Positions 1,322 through 26,806 of a DNA stretch of 64,000 nucleotides are shown one piece after another. The notes beneath the pieces are model-generated. The model was not told where the DNA came from. It saw only the letters and a program-made list of their open reading frames with translations, and ran no database searches. The DNA is taken from IMG/VR virus record IMGVR_UViG_2778261035_000005. One strand, given 5' to 3'. The translations under genes and the position numbers were made by a program. The DNA comes from a virus (lineage: Duplodnaviria; Heunggongvirae; Uroviricota; Caudoviricetes). The first letter of the stretch is position 1; the number at the start of each line of letters is the position of its first letter.

Positions 1322-4300
1322 ATGGAACAGTTCAAGAAGAAAAAGCTACCGCTGTTTATTGCCGGTGCGGGTGGTAAAAAAAGCAGCAAAAGCTCCAGCC
1401 GTACACCGGTTGAAGCCGACGATACCGTAAATTCTCGTGCAATGGCCGCTATCCTCGATCTTCTTGGGGAAGGGGTAATTGGCGGCTTAGTAAATGGCGC
1501 AAGATCTATTTTTATCGACGATCTGCCGATTGTAAATGAAGACGGTTCCTCCAACTTCAGCGGAATCACATGGGATTTTCGCGACGGTTCACAAGACCAG
1601 ACTCCAATGTCTGGCTTTGATTTCGTTGAAACGCCTAAATCCGTCAATATCCAGTTAAAAAAAACACATTATGTAACGGTTTCAATCGATAACGATGAAG
1701 CTGATCGGGTTCGTGTCATCATGAAGTTTCCTTCTTTGCGAAGCATAGATAAAAAAACTGGTGACACGAACGGTACGACTGTTGAGTACAAGTTCCAGAT
1801 AGCAAATGGCGACTCAACATTTGTAGATGTGGTCGCGGAAGGTGAAAAAAGCGTTGGCATTAAGCTAACAGCAAAGAAGACCAGCGTTTATTACCGTAGC
1901 TACGAGCTGAAGCTGCCTAAGCCTGGACGCGCATACAAGGTTCGTGTAGTCCGTATTACCGATGATAACAGTAGCCAGTATCTCTATAACGATACATGGG
2001 TGGATTCAATCGGGGAAATTGTCGATACACCGATGAACTATCCAAACTCTGTTTTAGTTGGATTGAAGGTAAACTCTGAGCAATTCGGCAGCACCATGCC
2101 ATCTCGCTCTTATCTGGTGCGTGGCCTAAAAATTCGAGTACCTTCAAACTATAACGAGTCCAGTAACACTTACGCTGGGGTATGGGATGGCACTTTTAAG
2201 CTGTTGTCTTCTTCGAACCCCGCGTGGATTCTCTTTGATTTGCTGACCAATGCTCGATATGGCCTTGGTCAGTATGTGTCGGAATCTATGATTGACCTTG
2301 GCCAGTTGTACCAGATTGGTCGATATTGTGACGAAGAGGTCGATGATGGCTTTGGTGGCAAAGAGAAACGCTTTGCAATCAATACGCAGATCACCAGTCG
2401 ACAGGACGCATACCGACTAATTCAGGATATTGCTGGAGCATTCCGCGGCATGGTGTTTTGGGCTGGTGGGATGGTTAACATCATGCAGGATAGCCCATCA
2501 GATCCGGTAATGATGTTTACCAACTCTAACGTCAAAGATGGATTGTTTACCTATAAAGGTTCTGCGCGTAAAGATCGCCCATCCGTTGCGCTCGTAACCT
2601 ACAACAACAAGGAGGACGGTTATAAGCAAAACATCGAGTACGTTGAAGATCAGGACGCAATGCGCCGTTATGGTGAGCGTAAGACAGAAGTCGTAGCATT
2701 TGGCTGTACAAGCCGAGGGCAGGCTCACCGAGTTGGTTTGTGGCTTTTATATACCGCCAGAATGGAGTCGGATGTAATTACATTTACTGCCGGCTTAGAC
2801 GCGTCATTTCTGATGCCTGGTGAAACCGTTCTGATTCAGAACAAATATCGCGCAGGCAAACGTAACTCAGGTCGAATTGTGGCGTTTACCAAAAACAGCG
2901 TCACACTCGATGCGCCGGTGTCGTTAGCCAAAGGCGGCTGCTTTATTCGAATACTGAATCAGGAAGGCAAAATCGTTGAACGCGATGTTCTTGAAACTGG
3001 CGAAAATATAACAAAAGTTACGTTTTCAAAATCCCTGTCTTCGGCTGAAACGCCTGTTTTGAACGGCGTCTGGACTATTACAGAACCAGACCTCGAACCT
3101 ATGCGCGTTCGCATCGTTAACATCGCGCAGGGGGAAACGCCGGGTAGCTTTGACATCACCGCTGTTGAGAACAATCCGTCTAAATATGAGGCGATCGACA
3201 ATGGTGCAACGCTTATCCCGCAAAATACGACGGTATTGGACCCGACTTACTCCAAGCCGTCTAATTTGCAAATCACCGAAGGGACTTATCTCTCAAGCCC
3301 TGGCAACCTGTCAGTAAAACTGACTGCAACATGGGAAGGGAAATCTCCAGAGTATTGGATCAGTTGGCGACGTTCTGATGAAAACAATGTATCGAACTGG
3401 CAATCGGCGCGTGTAACCGAAGAGCAATACGAAATCGTTAATGTTGCGGAGAATGGACGCTACGACTTCCAGCTGTATGCGGTTTCATTCAACGGTAAAA
3501 AAACAGAGATTATCAGTACCGTTTATCAGGTGCTGGGCACAATGACACCGCCAGATGCCCCAACGTCATTAACGGTCGTTGGAGACTATCGTAATGTGAT
3601 ACTGAATTGGGTTAATCCAGATTCGGTAGACCTTGATCACATTAATGTTTACGCATCCCAGACCAACAATCTGGATACGGCGAAACTGATCGCAGAGTCT
3701 GCAAGCACCACCTTTACACATGCTGGTCTTGGGGATAGCGAAACGTGGTATTACTGGGTTCGAGCATCGAACAAGCGAGGTATGTTAAGTCCTCCGAACT
3801 CAAACTTGGGTACAGAGGCGACAACTCGCGATGTACTGTCGTTCCTGACTGGCAAAATTACATCTTCCGAGCTTGGTCAGGCTCTGCTTGAGGACATCAA
3901 CAGCAAAGTCTCTCAAGAAGCAGTTGACGAGTTAAATGAGCATATCAACCAGAGCGTCGAATCTTTGGAGGGGTCGGTAAACGACGTTAAGGAAGATATA
4001 GCTGAATTAGATAAGCAGTTCAGCGATAACCTCGCGGATTTTGAAATAAAATTCAACGAGCGTAGCGATGCTTTGGAGAACGCACAAACCGAGCTTAAAG
4101 GTGAGGTTTCGGCAACGATCGACAAGGTCAATGAAGCGTTTGAAAAAATTGATGCTACTGATGCTGCAATTGTTGAAATCGAAAACACCGTATCTGAACA
4201 CGATAAAGCTCTCGCTAATACAGTCGAGGCAATAAAGGCTGCAAGAGATGAAGCGGCGGCTCTTATTGCTAAGGAAAGCGAGGCTCGTGTTGAAGGCGAT

Positions 4301-24109: not shown

Positions 24110-24888
24110 AAACACAATGATAAGTATTTACTTACTTATCTTTTATGTATAAGATGACTTTGTTTTCGTTGAGACGCGACTGTTTGAACTTAAATACAAG
24201 TGCAAACGAAGAAGTCTATCTGGCAGTAGCCTAATAAGCCAAACACCAGCGAGGTCAGTTTCCAGCCTCGTTACCGAAATGGGACACACTGAGCGAGTGT
24301 GATTGCAGAACGCAGGAGGGAACATGAATGTTCCCTCCGATGAAGTAACAGAATGGGCGGTCAGTATATTTTCAACTCATATACGACTCCCGGATTCTTA
24401 TCCAATGACCGCCCATCCTGTTACGTCATTTTGTTCAATTATGTCGTTTATACTGGGTTAAAAAGCGGCGACGTAGCCCGGCTGGTATGGTTAGCCAGCA
24501 CACAACGTTGAGGCCATTACATTTTTATCAATTCTAAGGTTCTATTCACAGAGATACCGGCGAGCGTTGATATGTAACATGTTGGGCAAACATTCAATCG
24601 GAGTAGTGGCCTCAACGTTGTGAAGACAGGATAGTTGTGTAGGTTTAACCACTGTTGCCATTGGTGCCTGTTTTCACAACAAATGATTCCATACATCACA
24701 TTGTATAAATTACAAAGTAAGTGCAGTCCTCAGAAACATCATCTACTTAAAGATTTTGCCTTCTACTATTGAGCGAAGTCGAAAGCGTCTGGCACTAACG
24801 AAAAGTGCAAGTAGCGGTGCGTTTCCTGGCAGAAACTAAACCGTCGCGATTGGCACTGTTGAGTAATAAATACTGGCAGTGCCGAATT

Positions 24889-24963
24889 GATGGTGTAGCT
24901 CAGCGGTAGAGCAGTTGGCTGTTAACCAACTGGTCGGTGGTTCGAATCCACCCACCATCGCCA
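24889..24963 (+). tRNA. tRNA-Asn (anticodon GUU)
   Basis: Hand-folded cloverleaf: acceptor GATGGTG/CACCATC, D-arm GCTCAGCGGTAGAGC, anticodon loop CTGTTAA, T-loop TTCGAAT, 3-prime CCA. Confidence 0.8.
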
Positions 24964-24965
24964 AT

Positions 24966-25041
24966 GCCGGTTTAGCTCAGTTGGTAGAGCACCTGCCTTG
25001 TAAGCAGGATGTCAGCGGTTCGAATCCGTTAACCGGCACCA
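24966..25041 (+). tRNA. tRNA-Thr (anticodon UGU)
   Basis: Acceptor GCCGGTT/AACCGGC, D-arm GCTCAGTTGGTAGAGC, anticodon loop CTTGTAA, T-loop TTCGAAT, 3-prime CCA. Confidence 0.8.
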
Positions 25042-25254
25042 ACACAACAGGAAAGAGCATTGAGAACCGCCGAGACTGCCCTGTTTGAAGCGTAAGTCCG
25101 TGCAAACGTCATACAGTGCTCTTTTCGTTGTGGTGAATGCGGCTAAGCGCACGCGGGGAAATGGTTATATTGATCCTTTGTGATGACTATTGGCTCCGTC
25201 CACGGTGGATAACCAGCCAAAGGACACCGGGAAGCACCCGGCACCACAACAATT

Positions 25255-25341
25255 GGAGAGTAGGGAGCATGGTGCTCAAGCGGTCTTGAAAACCGTCCCA
25301 TTGCGCAAGCGATGATGGTTCGATTCCATTACTCTCCGCCA
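25255..25341 (+). tRNA. tRNA-Ser (anticodon UGA), type II with long variable arm
   Basis: Acceptor GGAGAGT/ACTCTCC, anticodon loop CTTGAAA, variable-arm hairpin GCGCAAGCG, T-loop TTCGATT, 3-prime CCA. Confidence 0.65.
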
Positions 25342-25496
25342 GACACAGCGTTGAGCGGTTTGGCCTTTTAATCACCCAGATTAAGACTCCGCTAACATAA
25401 ACCAGACCGCTCAACGCTGTGATAGACAATTACGGCAGACGTTCTTAACCATAGCTTGCTAACATCCTAGCAACACTTTTTTTCAGCGCAAAATTC

Positions 25497-25518
25497 AAAG
25501 GGGCTTCGGCCCCTTTTT
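25497..25518. terminator. Bidirectional rho-independent terminator
   Basis: AAAGGGGC-TTCG-GCCCCTTTTT, between the tRNA cluster and the 3-prime end of the minus-strand gene. Confidence 0.75.
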
Positions 25519-25525
25519 GGCTGGG

Positions 25526-26806
25526 TTAATTAAAACCGAATGAATCAAGTTCTGCTTTTAATTTATCGACCATTTTTTCAACTTCAACCACAATTTCGCC
25601 AATCACCTTTTCTTTGTGTTGATTAGAGCTAAGTTCAAAATAGGCGTTATATAACGCATAACGAGACAGAAAATTTCTAATCTCATTAGCGGGTCTAATG
25701 GTGTAGCCATCGGTTAACACGATATCGGTCTGTCTAGAGTGCTTCTCGTTGAGTTTTATTAGCCGCTTTATCTGTTTTTCATCCTTGAGCACTATCACTT
25801 TGTTAGCTGCAATTTCAAGCTCCCAGCCGACAAAATAACGCAGCGTAGAATTTAATTTAGCCACTTCCTCGGCTGCAATTTCCATTTTCAGCTCAATGTA
25901 GTTTCGCATATGCATAGGTAGGTCATTAAATCTTTGCAGCAAATGTTGTCGGCAGGGGTTGTTGTAAGACCAAAGAACTGCAAACGTAAGCCTATGATAA
26001 CAGCTTATCGCATTGGTATTACAGGCCGAATCACCAACAATCATGCGATCAACATAAAACTCTACGTCTTTTTGGTATTCTTTATTGAATATATCAGCGG
26101 CATAGGTGTCCAGGTAATGAACTTTAGATATTGCATCTTCAAAGAAAAGTTCATTTTCGAAGAAGTTGTATTTGTTCAGGAGACGATAAAGTTTCTTTGC
26201 GTCGTAGGTTTTGCTATTGTCGACATTAAGACCAAAAATAGCAATCAGCAGACTTACTTTTGGACTAATGCTGTTGCGCAGTTGTTCTATGTAAGATCTC
26301 TTTTCACTATCCGCAGATGACGGCAGATAGAAGTCTTTATCTACATAATTTAGAATTAAAATAATGTGGTTAACATACTTAATATAAACAGGGTTTTTTG
26401 TTGCATAGTAATAAACGCCCTTGACGACTTTTATATTCAATTTCAAATTGTACTGACTATCATCCAGTAAGGTTTTGTTAACATCCTCAAGTAATTTATT
26501 ATGCTGTTCAAGTAATATGCCGTACCATTCCTTAAAAGAAGATTTTTTCATTTCAAGAAGCGAAGCCGCCGTCAGCCTGGTCGCTCTCATTGCCGCCTTT
26601 GCACTATGCCTTGCCTCATAAGCGGCCCATGCTGTGGCTAAAAAGGCAAGTGAAGTAGCAAGCGTACCTATAACCTCTACGTTTTCCTTGACGGTATCCC
26701 AGAAAATAATCATCACTGTCCCAAGTATGAGGATTAACAAAACAGGCATTTTATCAGTGTCTTTGGTTAATTTTGAAACTGAATGATACCTAATCGACCA
26801 TACCAT
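25526..26806 (-). CDS. Hypothetical membrane-anchored protein
   Basis: Up to 426 aa; two N-terminal TM helices and a ~350-aa cytoplasmic domain with no motif I can place; AT-rich codon usage; start may be 26749 instead. Confidence 0.55.
   Translation of the reverse strand: MVWSIRYHSVSKLTKDTDKMPVLLILILGTVMIIFWDTVKENVEVIGTLATSLAFLATAWAAYEARHSAKAAMRATRLTAASLLEMKKSSFKEWYGILLEQHNKLLEDVNKTLLDDSQYNLKLNIKVVKGVYYYATKNPVYIKYVNHIILILNYVDKDFYLPSSADSEKRSYIEQLRNSISPKVSLLIAIFGLNVDNSKTYDAKKLYRLLNKYNFFENELFFEDAISKVHYLDTYAADIFNKEYQKDVEFYVDRMIVGDSACNTNAISCYHRLTFAVLWSYNNPCRQHLLQRFNDLPMHMRNYIELKMEIAAEEVAKLNSTLRYFVGWELEIAANKVIVLKDEKQIKRLIKLNEKHSRQTDIVLTDGYTIRPANEIRNFLSRYALYNAYFELSSNQHKEKVIGEIVVEVEKMVDKLKAELDSFGFN

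What the first reader, a model, noticed from the sequence alone, without database searches (positions are those of the whole stretch)
24300..25520. tRNA cluster embedded in highly structured non-coding DNA with duplicated tRNA 3-prime ends
Three tRNAs (Asn-GUU, Thr-UGU, Ser-UGA) lie in a ~1.4-kb gene-free stretch that also has: a 10-bp perfect hairpin (24315-24338); a long-range inverted repeat GGGCGGTCA/TGACCGCCC (24354-24413); two related long inverted-repeat elements sharing a CGTTGAG core (CACAACGTTGAGGCCA...TGGCCTCAACGTTGTG at about 24509-24622 and CAGCGTTGAGCGGT...ACCGCTCAACGCTG at about 25345-25417); and two copies of a tRNA 3-prime-end-like sequence (CCGGCACCAACACAAC at 25033 and CCGGCACCACAACAAT at 25236). 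These could be small stable RNAs, processing sites, or att-like remnants of site-specific recombination at tRNA ends.
Basis: seen in the sequence. Interest (0 to 1): 0.45.

Follow-up and report, generated by a model that had tools for sequence, protein, structure and literature searches.

The report
Phage RNA-cassette operon with tmRNA-like tag
The gene-free stretch is one long non-coding RNA operon of an SSU5-like phage-plasmid: three tRNAs are strung together with exchangeable structured-RNA cassettes, and the operon opens with an apparently undescribed RNA that carries a conserved ten-codon, tmRNA-style degradation-tag template but no tRNA-like end.

Summary
The three tRNAs, all the inverted repeats (longer than reported: 24, 20 and 20 nt arms) and the duplicated CCGGCACCA..ACAA motif are present.

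The att-remnant reading is not supported. The small stable RNA / processing-site reading is supported by comparative evidence only.

The 1.36-kb stretch (about 24127-25518) is a promoter-to-terminator modular RNA array, also present in P1, HK620, Felix-O1-like, Kuttervirus and other phages. Modules are closed by GUUGUG...CACAAC and separated by long spacer hairpins.

The duplicated tRNA 3' end marks the two junctions of a 205-nt cassette: a spacer hairpin plus a cloverleaf-like STnc100-family RNA (44.1 bits; gathering score 47). The near-identical phage Cyrano lacks exactly this cassette. In relatives the tRNA-Thr/tRNA-Ser gap ranges from 8 to 490 nt.

The hairpins are RNA structures on the + strand: 99% of cells pair, 11 pairs show compensatory changes, and many changes are G-C to G-U.

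The first module (24162 to about 24500) holds GCA AAC GAA GAA GUC UAU CUG GCA GUA GCC UAA UAA = ANEEVYLAVA, followed by two covarying pseudoknots. With a tag-independent anchor, 98 of 99 distinct relatives keep a 10-codon AN[DE]...[AV]A frame plus stop and no start codon. No tRNA-like domain was found. Its function is inferred, not shown.

The parts
24127..24155 (+). Promoter-like site: TTTACT, 17-nt spacer, TAAGAT. Predicted RNA start at about 24162.
   Evidence: Read from the sequence. It has 8 of 12 consensus matches, just under the scan tool's cut-off, so one search does not list it. A TAnnnT hexamer sits 6-7 nt upstream of GUUUUCG in SSU5-like and Felix-O1-like relatives. Michonne has a perfect TTGACA-17-TAAGAT. 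Not tested experimentally.
24162..24500 (+). RNA-A, a ~340-nt structured RNA with a tmRNA-like coding domain. It has a conserved 5' GUUUUCG...GCGAC, the tag frame, two pseudoknots, hairpins I6 and I1, helix 24439-24448 / 24467-24476 and hairpin 24481-24486 / 24494-24499. It ends at the ACACAAC junction.
   Evidence: The first 160 nt are nearly invariant in 21 relatives. More distant relatives L015 and L098 share exactly this span and then run into what looks like a coding sequence. Covariation.
24202..24237 (+). Tag-like reading frame: GCA AAC GAA GAA GUC UAU CUG GCA GUA GCC UAA UAA = ANEEVYLAVA followed by two stop codons. No start codon and no conserved upstream frame.
   Evidence: With a tag-independent anchor, 98 of 99 distinct versions keep GCN-AAN-GAN, 10 codons, then a stop. 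Variable sites at codon positions 1/2/3 are 5/6/10 of 10. All three stop codons are used. Indels of 1-2 nt lie just upstream of GCA. Weak Rfam tmRNA hits fall exactly on this stretch.
24249..24315 (+). Two hairpins with pseudoknot partners directly after the tag. S1 is 24249-24255 / 24265-24271, with loop UUCCA (24260-24264) pairing to UGGGA (24280-24284). S2 is 24285-24290 / 24296-24301, with its loop probably pairing to 24311-24315.
   Evidence: Across families the variants stay complementary. S1: CGAGG/CCUCG, UGAGG/CCUCA, CAAGG/CCUUG, CAGGG/CCCUG. First loop partner: CCAG/CUGG, CCGA/UCGG, CCAA/UUGG, CUCCA/UGGAG. S2: CGCAC/GUGUG, CGCAU/AUGUG, CGUAC/GUAUG, CAGAC/GUCUG. Second loop partner: GCCCG/UGGGC, GCCCUGA/UCAGGGC, GGCGGGAG/CUCCCGCC. 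The second pseudoknot partner in the window's own subtype is uncertain.
24315..24338 (+). Part of RNA-A.
   Evidence: Five of its 10 aligned pairs show compensatory changes in relatives (helix 3).
24340..24429 (+). Part of RNA-A.
   Evidence: z -8.0. 24 pairs, 99.4% paired, many G-C to G-U changes on the + strand. AU to GC and GC to AU swaps in L015 and L098.
24501..24622 (+). Spacer hairpin I2: CACAACGUUGAGGCCAUUAC...GUAGUGGCCUCAACGUUGUG, 20-bp stem with a variable interior.
   Evidence: z -6.7. Three pairs with compensatory changes (GC to AU in 9 and 5 sequences, helix 7). The whole hairpin is absent in L105, deleted between the two copies of the palindrome CAACGTTG.
24617..24680 (+). Short GUUGUG...CACAAC module (I4). 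Its 5' strand overlaps the 3' arm of I2, so the two pairings are alternatives.
   Evidence: Compensatory variants are visible in relatives (AAGACAGG/CCUGUUUU against GGCCACG/CGUGGCC). Resembles the short modules of P1 and other relatives. z -2.8 only.
24681..24888 (+). Module B: conserved AAUGAUUCCAUACAUC, small hairpins, and a pre-tRNA hairpin 24850-24858 / 24877-24885. The least understood part.
   Evidence: Alignment A3. Helix GCGG/CCGY shows a GC to AU compensation (helix 8). The pre-tRNA hairpin is absent or replaced in relatives.
24889..24963 (+). tRNA-Asn (GUU), CCA encoded.
   Evidence: 75.5 bits.
24966..25041 (+). tRNA-Thr (UGU), CCA encoded, followed by the junction ACACAAC.
   Evidence: 76.5 bits.
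25045..25249 (+). The 205-nt cassette that is present or absent among near-identical relatives. It is bounded by the duplicated CCGGCACCA..ACAA motif (25033-25055 and 25238-25260).
   Evidence: Phage Cyrano (97.6% identical) lacks exactly this stretch. The Thr-Ser spacer is 8, 205, 213-224, 294, 320-321, 364 or 490 nt in relatives.
25050..25126 (+). Spacer hairpin of the cassette: GGAAAGAGCAUUG...CAGUGCUCUUUUC. Its loop (about 25071-25108) is a truncated paralog of the 5' part of RNA-A (24170-24209).
   Evidence: The same AGG(U/A)AAGAGCAUUG...CAGUGCUCUU(U/A)CC hairpin recurs in HK620, P1 and many loci. Paralogy score is 28 against 13.3 +/- 2.1 for shuffles, 0 of 2000 reaching it.
25127..25250 (+). 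STnc100-family, cloverleaf-like RNA: 9-bp closing stem GUUGUGGUG/CACCACAAC, a D-arm-like hairpin, two central arms, and a T-arm-like hairpin CCGGG-AAGCA-CCCGG abutting the 3' strand.
   Evidence: Rfam RF02076 at 25109-25277: 44.1 bits against a gathering score of 47, E 7e-8. Fold z -3.5. The P1 homolog has the compensated stem GUUGCGGUG/CACCGCAAC. Family variants GUUGUGAUG/CAUCACAAU and GUCGG/CCGAC. L091's copy passes the gathering score at 48.7 bits.
25255..25341 (+). tRNA-Ser (UGA), class II, CCA encoded.
   Evidence: The same gene follows the variable spacer in relatives.
25344..25421 (+). Spacer hairpin I3: CACAGCGUUGAGCGGUUUGG...CCAGACCGCUCAACGCUGUG, 20-bp stem.
   Evidence: z -9.7. The arms are invariant in nearly all relatives while the loop is replaced (the L049 3' arm differs, breaking pairs), so there is sequence conservation but no covariation. 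It always follows tRNA-Ser.
25455..25518 (+). Operon end: a weak hairpin plus U7 (25457-25484), then a strong two-way terminator AAAGGGGCUUCGGCCCCUUUUU (25497-25518).
   Evidence: Read from the sequence. My regular expression finds the same GC hairpin plus T-run at this distance after I3 in relatives. The next gene (25526-26806) converges on the minus strand.

Best explanation
The stretch from about 24127 to 25518 is a single co-directional non-coding RNA operon of an SSU5-like phage-plasmid, built as an array of exchangeable RNA modules.

Transcription (inferred). It starts at a conserved sigma-70-like site, giving an RNA 5' end at about 24162 (GUUUUCG). It ends at the GGGGCUUCGGCCCC-U5 terminator.

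Order of modules in the precursor:
1. RNA-A (about 340 nt), which holds a tmRNA-style 10-codon tag template (ANEEVYLAVA, two stop codons), two pseudoknots and long hairpins.
2. A spacer hairpin (I2).
3. A short GUUGUG...CACAAC module (I4).
4. Module B.
5. tRNA-Asn and tRNA-Thr.
6. An optional 205-nt cassette: a spacer hairpin plus a cloverleaf-like STnc100-family RNA.
7. tRNA-Ser.
8. A spacer hairpin (I3).

Grammar. Each module ends in ...CACAAC. GUUGUG-type modules are closed by GUUGUG/CACAAC. The same two hexamers can instead extend the spacer hairpins, giving two alternative pairing registers.

Role of the hairpins (inferred, not shown). The 20-24-bp hairpins most likely punctuate the precursor for RNase III. 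The tRNAs and tRNA-like modules are most likely released by RNase P and 3' trimming. The products would be three tRNAs and several stable small RNAs.

The duplicated tRNA 3' end. It consists of the two junctions of the 205-nt cassette. The shared CCGGCACCA..ACAAC sequence allows gain or loss of cassettes by homologous or slipped recombination.

RNA-A. The frame shows a substitution pattern of the kind expected for a translated frame, so it is most likely read by ribosomes in a trans-translation-like way. How a ribosome would enter is unknown, because no tRNA-like domain was found.
For: Identity and context.
- The window is 97-99.9% identical here to phage Cyrano, CMS-2020a and E. coli phage-plasmids.
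- Upstream genes (primase, ligase, small ORFs) are on the same strand.

RNA-level structure.
- 86 pairs in 8 helices are 99.0% paired across 21 relatives, against 33-52% when the 3' partners are slid.
- 11 pairs (41 cells) show compensatory changes, against 0-4 pairs when slid.
- 0 of 500 shuffles reach the observed pairing percentage or covariation score.
- Many changes are G-C to G-U, which pair only in the + strand RNA.

Modularity.
- Cyrano lacks exactly the 205 nt between the two repeat copies.
- The Thr-Ser spacer takes at least eight different lengths in relatives. tRNA-Tyr or tRNA-Thr are present or absent, and I2 is cleanly deleted in L105.
- The same junction, spacer-hairpin and GUUGUG-module grammar occurs in P1 downstream of the C1-controlled ban promoter, in the HK620 late leader, and in Klebsiella siphophages and Kutterviruses.
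- CACAAC occurs 4 times in the 1.43-kb region against 23 times on the + strand of the whole 64-kb window, about 8-fold enriched.

Cassette RNA.
- STnc100 hit with E 7e-8.
- Compensated closing stem in P1; compensated D-like and T-like stems in the family.

Tag frame.
- 98 of 99 distinct versions found without using the tag carry 10 codons plus a stop.
- Third codon positions vary most.
- Synonymous GCA to GCU and AAC to AAU changes occur in Cba120 and P46FS4.
- Stop codons UAA, UAG and UGA are all used.
- Pseudoknot covariation.
Against: - No expression data. The transcription start, the processing sites and the existence of stable products are all inferred. I found no transcriptome paper covering this locus.
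- The promoter-like site matches only 8 of 12 consensus positions and was not listed by the scan. Read-through from upstream genes is equally possible.
- The I3 stem never varies, so it gives no covariation support. It could be a sequence-specific protein or DNA site.
- The STnc100 score is below Rfam's gathering score.
- For RNA-A, no acceptor stem, T-arm or CCA partner was found in the window or in 1.75 Mb of related loci. ARAGORN and the Rfam tmRNA models do not call it. Nucleotide similarity to E. coli ssrA is confined to the tag and is not significant. A canonical trans-translation mechanism therefore cannot be asserted.
Confidence: 0.75

Rival explanations
1. The duplicated tRNA 3' ends are attL/attR-like scars of integrase-mediated insertion of a mobile element into the tRNA-Thr gene (one of the first reader's suggestions).
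For: A 23-nt direct repeat flanks a segment that is present or absent among near-identical relatives. tRNA 3' ends are classic integration sites (established knowledge). Cyrano carries an integrase about 2 kb away.
Against: The insert is 205 nt of non-coding RNA with no recombinase. The distal repeat copy is part of the cassette RNA's own T-arm-like hairpin and closing stem, and matches the Rfam STnc100 consensus. The same junction motif occurs at all module boundaries and in unrelated phages. At this site relatives carry many different cassette combinations, not a single empty/filled pair.
Confidence: 0.04
2. The inverted repeats act at the DNA level, as a replication origin, as partition or recombinase binding sites, or as miniature inverted-repeat transposable elements that share CACA(A/G)CGTTGAG termini.
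For: I2 and I3 share a terminal sequence and have 20-nt arms. The I3 arms are invariant while its loop is replaced. I2 is precisely absent in one relative. The locus lies next to replication genes (primase, ligase).
Against: Stems tolerate G-C to G-U changes, which would be C-A mismatches on the other strand or in a cruciform. There are no target-site duplications at the hairpin flanks. The hairpins keep a fixed order relative to the tRNAs and share strand polarity with them. The L105 deletion is explained by the CAACGTTG direct repeats inside the two arms. No further copies of the GUUGAG/CACAAC grammar stand out elsewhere in the window.
Confidence: 0.08
3. The tag-like frame of RNA-A is not translated. 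It is conserved because the RNA sequence is a binding site or decoy, for example for SmpB, ribosomal protein S1, RNase R or Hfq. On this view RNA-A and the STnc100-like module are ordinary base-pairing or protein-sponging phage small RNAs.
For: There is no tRNA-like domain, no CCA end and no start codon. STnc100 and PasD are described as prophage base-pairing small RNAs (bioRxiv 10.64898/2026.05.13.724894). The 3' half of the frame (CUGGCAGUAGCC) is also predicted to be base-paired.
Against: Variation is concentrated at third codon positions (10 of 10 sites, against 5 and 6). The length is fixed at 10 codons. Three different stop codons occur at the same place. Synonymous changes occur in codons 1 and 2. 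Replacements are conservative (D/E, Y/F, V/M/L). Selection on a pure RNA-binding site would not be expected to give this pattern.
Confidence: 0.3
4. The stretch encodes small proteins: for example the 26-aa ORF 24154-24234, the 52-aa ORFs at 24303-24511, or minus-strand ORFs like the annotated P1 plp/upl and Cyrano CYRAN_40. On this view the repeats are incidental.
For: ORFs of 26-80 aa exist. Homologous regions are annotated as coding sequences in P1, Cyrano, wV8 and others.
Against: The frames are broken by 1-2-nt and larger indels among close relatives. Conservation follows base-pairing, not codons. The annotated coding sequences overlap tRNA genes or whole RNA cassettes on the opposite strand. 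In HK620 an in-frame UAG lies eight codons upstream of the resume codon (read from the sequence).
Confidence: 0.03

Closest known systems
Phage tRNA operons with co-transcribed small stable RNAs, such as the T4 tRNA cluster with species 1 and species 2 RNAs (rnaC, rnaD). Recalled from my own knowledge of the T4 literature; not checked here.
   Same: tRNAs and non-tRNA structured RNAs lie in one precursor. The non-tRNA RNAs have tRNA-like closing stems. Host RNase P, RNase E and RNase III are presumed to process the precursor.
   Different: Here the non-tRNA modules follow a repeated junction and spacer-hairpin grammar, are swapped among close relatives, and include a tag-coding RNA. No sequence relationship to the T4 RNAs was tested.
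STnc100 (Rfam RF02076) and PasD, prophage small RNAs of Salmonella Fels-1 and Stx phages.
   Same: The window's 25127-25250 aligns over the full model (positions 1-206) with E 7e-8. It shares UGGUGAAU...CACCGGGA(A/G)GCACCCGGCACCA. The location is a phage leader or tRNA region, as reported for Stx phages (PMC12370729; bioRxiv 10.64898/2026.05.13.724894).
   Different: The score of 44.1 is below the gathering score of 47. Here the RNA is one cassette of an array inside a tRNA operon, and it folds as a cloverleaf-like four-arm structure. The literature treats STnc100 as a stand-alone base-pairing small RNA.
tmRNA (SsrA), especially the coding piece of two-piece (permuted) tmRNAs.
   Same: A 10-codon frame starts at GCA with no start codon and follows an A-rich stretch. 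It encodes AN[DE]xx[YF]LAVA, ANDDxxLMAA or ANDNYALAAA, against E. coli ANDENYALAA. The stop codon lies in a small hairpin (in the HK620-type modules; not evident in the window's own subtype). Pseudoknots follow directly.
   Different: There is no tRNA-like domain: no acceptor stem with G3-U70, no T-arm, no CCA. No partner acceptor piece was found. It is only 150-340 nt long. The Rfam tmRNA models give 14-16 bits. There is no significant nucleotide similarity to host ssrA outside the tag.
RNase III processing stems of rRNA operons and of T7 or lambda early transcripts (established knowledge).
   Same: Near-perfect duplexes of 20-24 bp flank or separate functional RNAs within a polycistronic precursor.
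   Different: Cleavage has not been shown. Some spacer hairpins in relatives carry T-arm-like hairpins (GGGUUCGAAUCCC), which suggests RNase P-type punctuation instead.

Membership tests
tRNA (RF00005 / ARAGORN) | Cloverleaf with anticodon, T-loop GGUUCGAnUCC and a complete acceptor stem; model score above the gathering score of 29. | tested here: met
   Asn scores 75.5 bits and Thr 76.5 bits. All three genes are called by ARAGORN. The T-loop motif is exact in all three. Ser is not listed by Rfam at the gathering score (the tRNA-Sec model gives 44.6 bits against 47).
STnc100 (RF02076) | Covariance-model score at or above the gathering score of 47 bits. | tested here: not met
   44.1 bits, E 7e-8, full-length alignment. 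The related copy in L091 scores 48.7 bits. The P1 copies are below the gathering score.
STnc100 (RF02076) | Conserved closing helix and 3' hairpin CACCGGGAGGCACCCGGCACCA. | tested here: met
   The window has CACCGGGAAGCACCCGGCACCAC. The closing stem is compensated in P1.
tmRNA | tRNA-like domain: 5'/3' acceptor stem with G3-U70, T-arm, 3' CCA. | tested here: not met
   ARAGORN finds none. No CGAAAACNCCA-type partner and no extra T-loop in the window. None in 1.75 Mb of related loci.
tmRNA | Internal tag reading frame with a resume codon (usually GCA), no start codon, ending in hydrophobic ..AA plus a stop. | tested here: met
   24202-24237 encodes ANEEVYLAVA followed by two stops. 98 of 99 relatives keep the frame. 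The substitution pattern is that of a coding sequence.
tmRNA | Pseudoknots flanking the coding region. | tested here: inconclusive
   Two downstream pseudoknots have covariation support. Upstream there is only a simple hairpin, with no PK1 or PK4 equivalent.
tmRNA | Rfam tmRNA-family model score above the gathering score. | tested here: not met
   tmRNA_permuted gives 16 bits (gathering score 47). beta_tmRNA gives 14.4 bits (gathering score 84). Both hits lie only on the tag.
tmRNA | Aminoacylation with alanine, SmpB binding, and tagging of stalled nascent chains. | not testable with these tools
   Needs biochemistry or proteomics.
Integrative-element att site at a tRNA gene | Direct repeats of the tRNA 3' end bounding an element that encodes, or is mobilised by, a site-specific recombinase. 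| tested here: not met
   The bounded segment is a 205-nt non-coding cassette. The repeat is intrinsic to the cassette RNA and to all module junctions.
RNase III processing stem | About 20 bp or more of near-perfect duplex RNA inside a precursor transcript. | tested here: met
   I1 has 24-nt arms; I2 and I3 have 20-nt arms.
RNase III processing stem | Staggered cleavage within the duplex that depends on the rnc gene. | not testable with these tools
   No RNA-end data are available.
Miniature inverted-repeat transposable element | Terminal inverted repeats flanked by target-site duplications, with multiple dispersed copies. | tested here: not met
   No duplications at the flanks of I2 or I3. 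The copies occur only inside this operon and in a fixed order.

The most novel reading that the evidence does not exclude
RNA-A and its 150-nt stand-alone relatives in P1, HK620, Felix-O1-like phages, Kutterviruses and Klebsiella siphophages would be a new class of phage-encoded 'orphan coding-piece' tmRNA. Ribosomes would really translate its 10-codon template, adding a phage-specified C-terminal tag (…LAVA, …LMAA, …VAA) in place of the host's …ALAA. The tRNA-like function would be supplied in trans (by a host tmRNA fragment, or by a tRNA-like cassette of the same array) or by an unrecognised fold. In that way phages would redirect or disarm ribosome rescue and tag-dependent proteolysis during infection. 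The surrounding GUUGUG/CACAAC cassette array would be a mobile toolkit of tRNA-derived RNAs.
Probability: 0.3. Interest if true: 0.92.

Novelty: new variant of a known kind. Interest (0 to 1): 0.72.

Why it matters
Three points matter if the picture holds.

1. Unannotated or misannotated RNA arrays. The non-coding 'gaps' next to phage tRNA genes would be organised arrays of exchangeable structured RNAs with a simple junction grammar. These arrays are unannotated in the records examined. In P1, plp and upl are annotated on the opposite strand across them, and in Cyrano CYRAN_40 overlaps tRNA genes.

2. A cheap, direct test of phage interference with ribosome rescue.
   - A tmRNA-style tag template lacking a tRNA-like domain is conserved, with a coding-type substitution pattern, in many unrelated enterobacterial phages, including the model phages P1 and HK620.
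   - It is unannotated in all the listed matches among 135 E. coli RefSeq genomes, and no paper found in the searchable library describes it.
   - The test is to look for the predicted C-terminal peptides in induced P1 lysogens.
   - It also raises the question of whether trans-translation can use a template that is physically separate from the tRNA-like domain.

3. Context for the STnc100/PasD small RNAs of pathogenic E. coli prophages. They appear here as cloverleaf-like members of the same cassette family; at least one family member has tRNA-consensus D- and T-arms.

Tried and rejected
- Looked for a tRNA-like domain or acceptor piece. Searched for a CGAAAACNCCA partner of the conserved 5' GUUUUCG and for extra T-loops in the window (only chance-level matches and the three tRNAs). 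Searched 1.75 Mb of related loci for a T-loop followed by a strand complementary to GUUUUCG, and for the reverse complement of GCGACUUUGCGG (only the element's own opposite strand and ordinary tRNAs).
- Considered pairing of the RNA-A 5' end with 24797-24806 (AACGAAAAG). Rejected: relatives have AACGUAAAG with no compensating change.
- Tested homology to E. coli ssrA by local alignment. Not significant, and confined to the tag.
- Scanned species-representative genomes for the tag-plus-anchor pattern. Three hits in unrelated metagenome-assembled genomes, which is the chance expectation. This gave no information on distribution.
- Rfam at a permissive E-value over the region gave nothing beyond tRNA, STnc100 and weak tmRNA hits. 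There was no DicF, C4, group I intron or ribozyme match.
- Considered the alternative +2 frame starting at the overlapping AUG (MQTKK...). Rejected: its first codon position would be the most variable, its length varies (7-9 aa), and the AUG is lost in SSU5, Cba120 and others.
- Literature searches for a phage tmRNA-like element, for 'LAVA' tags, and for Felixounavirus tmRNA found no description. Searches for expression data on SSU5-like plasmids or P1 found none covering this locus.
- The automatic promoter scan did not list the conserved site. I kept it as 'promoter-like' on comparative grounds only.
- Did not build a covariance model. MAFFT put the subfamilies out of register, so the pseudoknot covariation was tabulated with an anchor-based script instead. 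That parse is noisy and some rows are mis-parsed.


Full report
**1. What the window is**

The region is 97-99.9% identical to Escherichia phage Cyrano, phage CMS-2020a and many non-mobilizable E. coli and E. albertii plasmids of about 110 kb. It is 73-81% identical to Salmonella phage SSU5, Klebsiella phage-plasmids and Yersinia pestis plasmids of about 100-137 kb. The window is therefore an SSU5-like phage-plasmid. Upstream lie a primase, an ATP-dependent DNA ligase and small ORFs on the + strand. Downstream, a 426-aa gene with a weak putAbiC match converges on the minus strand.

**2. The observation**

- ARAGORN calls tRNA-Asn(GTT) 24889-24963, tRNA-Thr(TGT) 24966-25041 and tRNA-Ser(TGA) 25255-25341. 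Rfam confirms Asn and Thr at about 76 bits.
- The inverted repeats are longer than described: 11 bp at 24315-24338; 24-nt arms at 24340-24363 / 24406-24429; 20-nt arms at 24501-24520 / 24603-24622 and at 25344-25363 / 25402-25421.
- The direct repeat is 25033-25055 against 25238-25260.
- The hairpins fold far better than shuffled sequence, with z from -6.7 to -9.7.
- No ORF in the 1.4 kb exceeds 80 aa.

**3. The hairpins are RNA structures on the + strand**

I aligned 21 non-redundant relatives, 53-98% identical to the window, from the start of the leader to tRNA-Asn.
- For 86 pairs in eight local helices, 99.0% of cells are paired. When the 3' partners are slid by 1-3 columns, only 33-52% are paired.
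- Eleven pairs (41 cells) changed on both sides and stayed paired, against 0-4 pairs in the slid controls. None of 500 shuffles reaches the observed pairing or covariation score.
- Compensation is concentrated in hairpin 24315-24338 (5 of its 10 aligned pairs) and in 24501-24622 (GC to AU in 9 and in 5 sequences).
- The long hairpin 24340-24429 changes mostly from G-C to G-U. That is tolerated only in + strand RNA, not in a DNA cruciform or in the opposite strand.
- Adding two more distant relatives (L015, L098) adds AU to GC and GC to AU swaps in that hairpin and in the two small hairpins near the 5' end.
- The exception is 25344-25421. Its arms are invariant in nearly all relatives (one, L049, has a changed 3' arm) while its loop is replaced. 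It is conserved, but gives no covariation evidence.

**4. The 'duplicated tRNA 3' end' marks a cassette**

- Cyrano is collinear with the window except that tRNA-Ser follows tRNA-Thr after 8 nt. It lacks exactly the 205 nt between the two repeat copies.
- The extra segment gives a full-length, near-threshold match to the prophage small RNA family STnc100: 25109-25277, 44.1 bits against a gathering score of 47, E 7e-8.
- The distal copy of the repeat (CCGGCACCAC) is the 3' half of that RNA's terminal hairpin plus its closing stem, and is present in the Rfam consensus. It is therefore not a copy of the tRNA end.
- Among SSU5-like relatives the Thr-Ser gap is 8, 205, 213, 217, 224, 294, 320, 321, 364 or 490 nt. 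tRNA-Tyr and tRNA-Thr come and go. Some relatives have only tRNA-Asn followed by a terminator.

**5. A cassette grammar**

Reading those spacers, together with the homologous regions of P1, HK620, Carvaje and many IMG/VR contigs, shows a repeated syntax.
- A junction ...CACAAC.
- A spacer hairpin AGG(U/A)AAGAGCAUUG...CAGUGCUCUU(U/A)CC. In some relatives it encloses a T-arm-like GGGUUCGAAUCCC hairpin.
- A module that opens with GUUGUG(G/A)UGAAU and closes with C(A/G)(C/U)CACAAC.
- Then the next junction. tRNAs are followed by the same ACACAAC trailer.

Because CACAAC and GUUGUG are complementary, they can pair in two ways. They can close each module, or they can extend each spacer hairpin. 24617-24680 is a short GUUGUG...CACAAC module.

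CACAAC occurs four times in these 1.43 kb, against 23 times on the + strand of the whole 64-kb window.

The window's cassette consists of a spacer hairpin (25050-25126) and a long module (25127-25250).
- The module folds as a four-arm cloverleaf-like structure. It has a 9-bp closing stem, a D-arm-like hairpin after 3 nt, two central arms, and a 5-bp hairpin abutting the 3' strand.
- The P1 homolog has the compensated stem GUUGCGGUG/CACCGCAAC.
- Other family members show GUUGUGAUG/CAUCACAAU, GUCGG/CCGAC and GCAC/GUGC compensations. One member carries consensus D- and T-arm sequences. This suggests, as an inference, that the family derives from tRNAs.
- The loop of the cassette's spacer hairpin contains a truncated paralog of the 5' end of the operon's first RNA (score 28 against 13.3 +/- 2.1; 0 of 2000 shuffles).

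**6. The first module carries a tmRNA-style tag template**

A blastn search with the leader unexpectedly hit about 110 nt in Felix-O1-like phages, HK620/HK633 and Klebsiella siphophages. The element's context differs between them.
- In Michonne it lies inside the tRNA array, behind a perfect TTGACA-17-TAAGAT.
- In HK620 it lies inside the late pR'-to-tQ leader.
- In Carvaje it lies upstream of tRNA-Ser.
- In P1 it follows the annotated 'dicF-like region' of the ban operon.

The shared core contains a frame with no start codon, read here from the RNA.

| Phage | Encoded tag |
|---|---|
| Window | GCA AAC GAA GAA GUC UAU CUG GCA GUA GCC UAA UAA = ANEEVYLAVA |
| SSU5 | ANEDTYLAVA |
| HK620 | ANEEMYLAVA |
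| Michonne | ANDNVFLAVA |
| P1 | ANDDLMMVAA |
| Cba120 | GCU AAU GAU AAC ACG UUC ... = ANDNTFLAVA |
| P46FS4 | ANDNAYLAVA |
| E. coli tmRNA, for comparison (ssrA sequence) | ANDENYALAA |

To avoid circularity I rescanned IMG/VR with an anchor in the downstream pseudoknot only.
- Of 99 distinct versions, 98 carry GCN-AAN-GAN, exactly 10 codons, then a stop.
- There are 19 different peptides, including ANDDVVLMAA, ANDDLMLMAA and ANDNYALAAA.
- Variable sites at codon positions 1, 2 and 3 number 5, 6 and 10 of 10.
- Stop codons UAA, UAG and UGA all occur.
- Immediately upstream, close relatives differ by 1-2-nt indels, and HK620 has an in-frame UAG. There is therefore no conventional ORF.
- The overlapping AUG frame is not the conserved one.

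Downstream, two hairpins each pair through their loop with the following segment. Multiple independent compensations support this: CCAG/CUGG, CCGA/UCGG, CCAA/UUGG; GCCCG/UGGGC, GCCCUGA/UCAGGGC, GGCGGGAG/CUCCCGCC.

Rfam's tmRNA_permuted and beta_tmRNA models give only 14-16 bits, exactly on the tag. On one relative, ARAGORN's tag finder even reports 'tmRNA* ANDNVFLAVA**', with a spurious tRNA-like domain.

In SSU5-like elements the module is extended to about 340 nt (24162 to about 24500). More distant relatives share exactly this span.

**7. What is missing**

- No acceptor stem, T-arm or CCA end that could pair with the conserved 5' GUUUUCG was found. This holds for the window and for 1.75 Mb of related loci.
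- Nucleotide similarity to E. coli ssrA is limited to the tag and is not significant.
- The element therefore fails the defining test for tmRNA membership, although it looks like the coding piece of a two-piece tmRNA.
- It is unannotated in all the listed matches among 135 E. coli RefSeq genomes.
- No paper in the searchable library describes it.
- A scan of species-representative genomes gave only chance-level hits.

**8. Mechanism, with what is shown and what is inferred**

Shown by comparison:
- a conserved, strand-specific, modular RNA architecture;
- cassette gain and loss at repeated junctions;
- a substitution pattern of the kind expected for a translated frame in the 10-codon template.

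Inferred:
- transcription from the conserved TAAGAT-type site, or by read-through from upstream, to the terminator at 25497-25518;
- release of the modules by RNase III at the 20-24-bp hairpins, and by RNase P and 3' trimming at the tRNAs and tRNA-like modules;
- cassette turnover by recombination between the CCGGCACCA..CACAAC junctions. The clean loss of 24501-24622 in L105, between two copies of the palindrome CAACGTTG, shows the same kind of event.

Unknown:
- what the STnc100-like and short modules do;
- how, or whether, ribosomes enter the tag frame.

My best guess for RNA-A is that it takes part in a trans-translation-like process with the tRNA-like function supplied in trans (probability about 0.3). 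The main rival is a non-translated decoy or sponge (about 0.3).

**9. Verdict**

- As written, the finding describes a real and non-random feature.
- Its 'att remnant' reading is wrong. Its 'stable RNAs / processing sites' reading is reasonable.
- The tRNA operon itself is ordinary.
- The cassette grammar and, above all, the tmRNA-like tag template without a tRNA-like domain, which is widespread in phages including P1 and HK620, are not ordinary and are directly testable.
- There are no expression data, so every functional statement remains inference.

Noticed in passing
L003 (phage P1, NC_005856) 2629-3198, minus strand; record 69472-70041: The annotated P1 genes plp ('putative lipoprotein') and upl lie on the opposite strand of a run of four to five RNA cassettes (spacer hairpins plus GUUGUG...CACAAC modules). 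These cassettes continue the tRNA-Asn/tRNA-Thr transcription unit. The two coding sequences may be annotation artefacts. Cyrano's CYRAN_40, which overlaps tRNA genes, looks like the same kind of artefact.
   Followed up: partly
L025 (Felix-O1-like IMG/VR contig), about 150-240 nt downstream of its tag module: Where relatives have a normal tRNA-Arg(UCU), this phage has a tRNA-like RNA that ARAGORN misses. It has no D-arm, a UCU anticodon loop and a long variable region. Its acceptor stem is CGGGGCG/CGCCUCG with G3-U70, followed by A73 and CCA, which is the alanine identity set. This was read by eye and is unexplained. It may or may not relate to the neighbouring tag template.
   Followed up: no
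L041 (SSU5-like IMG/VR contig), directly after tRNA-Asn: A tRNA-Thr-like gene carries an insertion of about 95 nt in the anticodon region. Its 5' and 3' thirds match the window's tRNA-Thr. It is either an intron-like insertion or a disrupted gene.
   Followed up: no
window 25071-25108 compared with 24170-24209: The loop of the cassette's spacer hairpin is a truncated paralog of the 5' part of RNA-A, running through GUGCAAACG, the start of the tag. Alignment score 28 against 13.3 +/- 2.1 for shuffles; 0 of 2000 reach it.
   Followed up: yes
window 25526-26806, minus strand: The convergent 426-aa gene directly after the terminator has a weak, sub-threshold match to putAbiC, a putative phage abortive-infection protein (20.1 bits against a cut-off of 22). 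Cyrano has different genes at this position.
   Followed up: partly
L105, against window 24501-24616: One relative lacks the whole 24501-24622 hairpin. The deletion runs between the two copies of the self-complementary octamer CAACGTTG in the arms. It is an example of how these modules are lost.
   Followed up: partly
L003 (P1) 1948-2049, and L091 / L127 (Kuttervirus-like loci): In P1 the tag module directly follows the annotated DicF-like RNA and its terminator. In Kuttervirus-like loci the tag module, an STnc100 copy that passes the gathering score, T-arm-bearing tRNA-like hairpins and tRNAs lie in one orientation within about 2 kb. The co-occurrence of these RNA types was not quantified.
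   Followed up: partly
L012 1709-1862, minus strand: A strong SIB_RNA match (type I antitoxin RNA, 98.6 bits) lies near the tag module in one lambdoid contig. It is probably unrelated.
   Followed up: no
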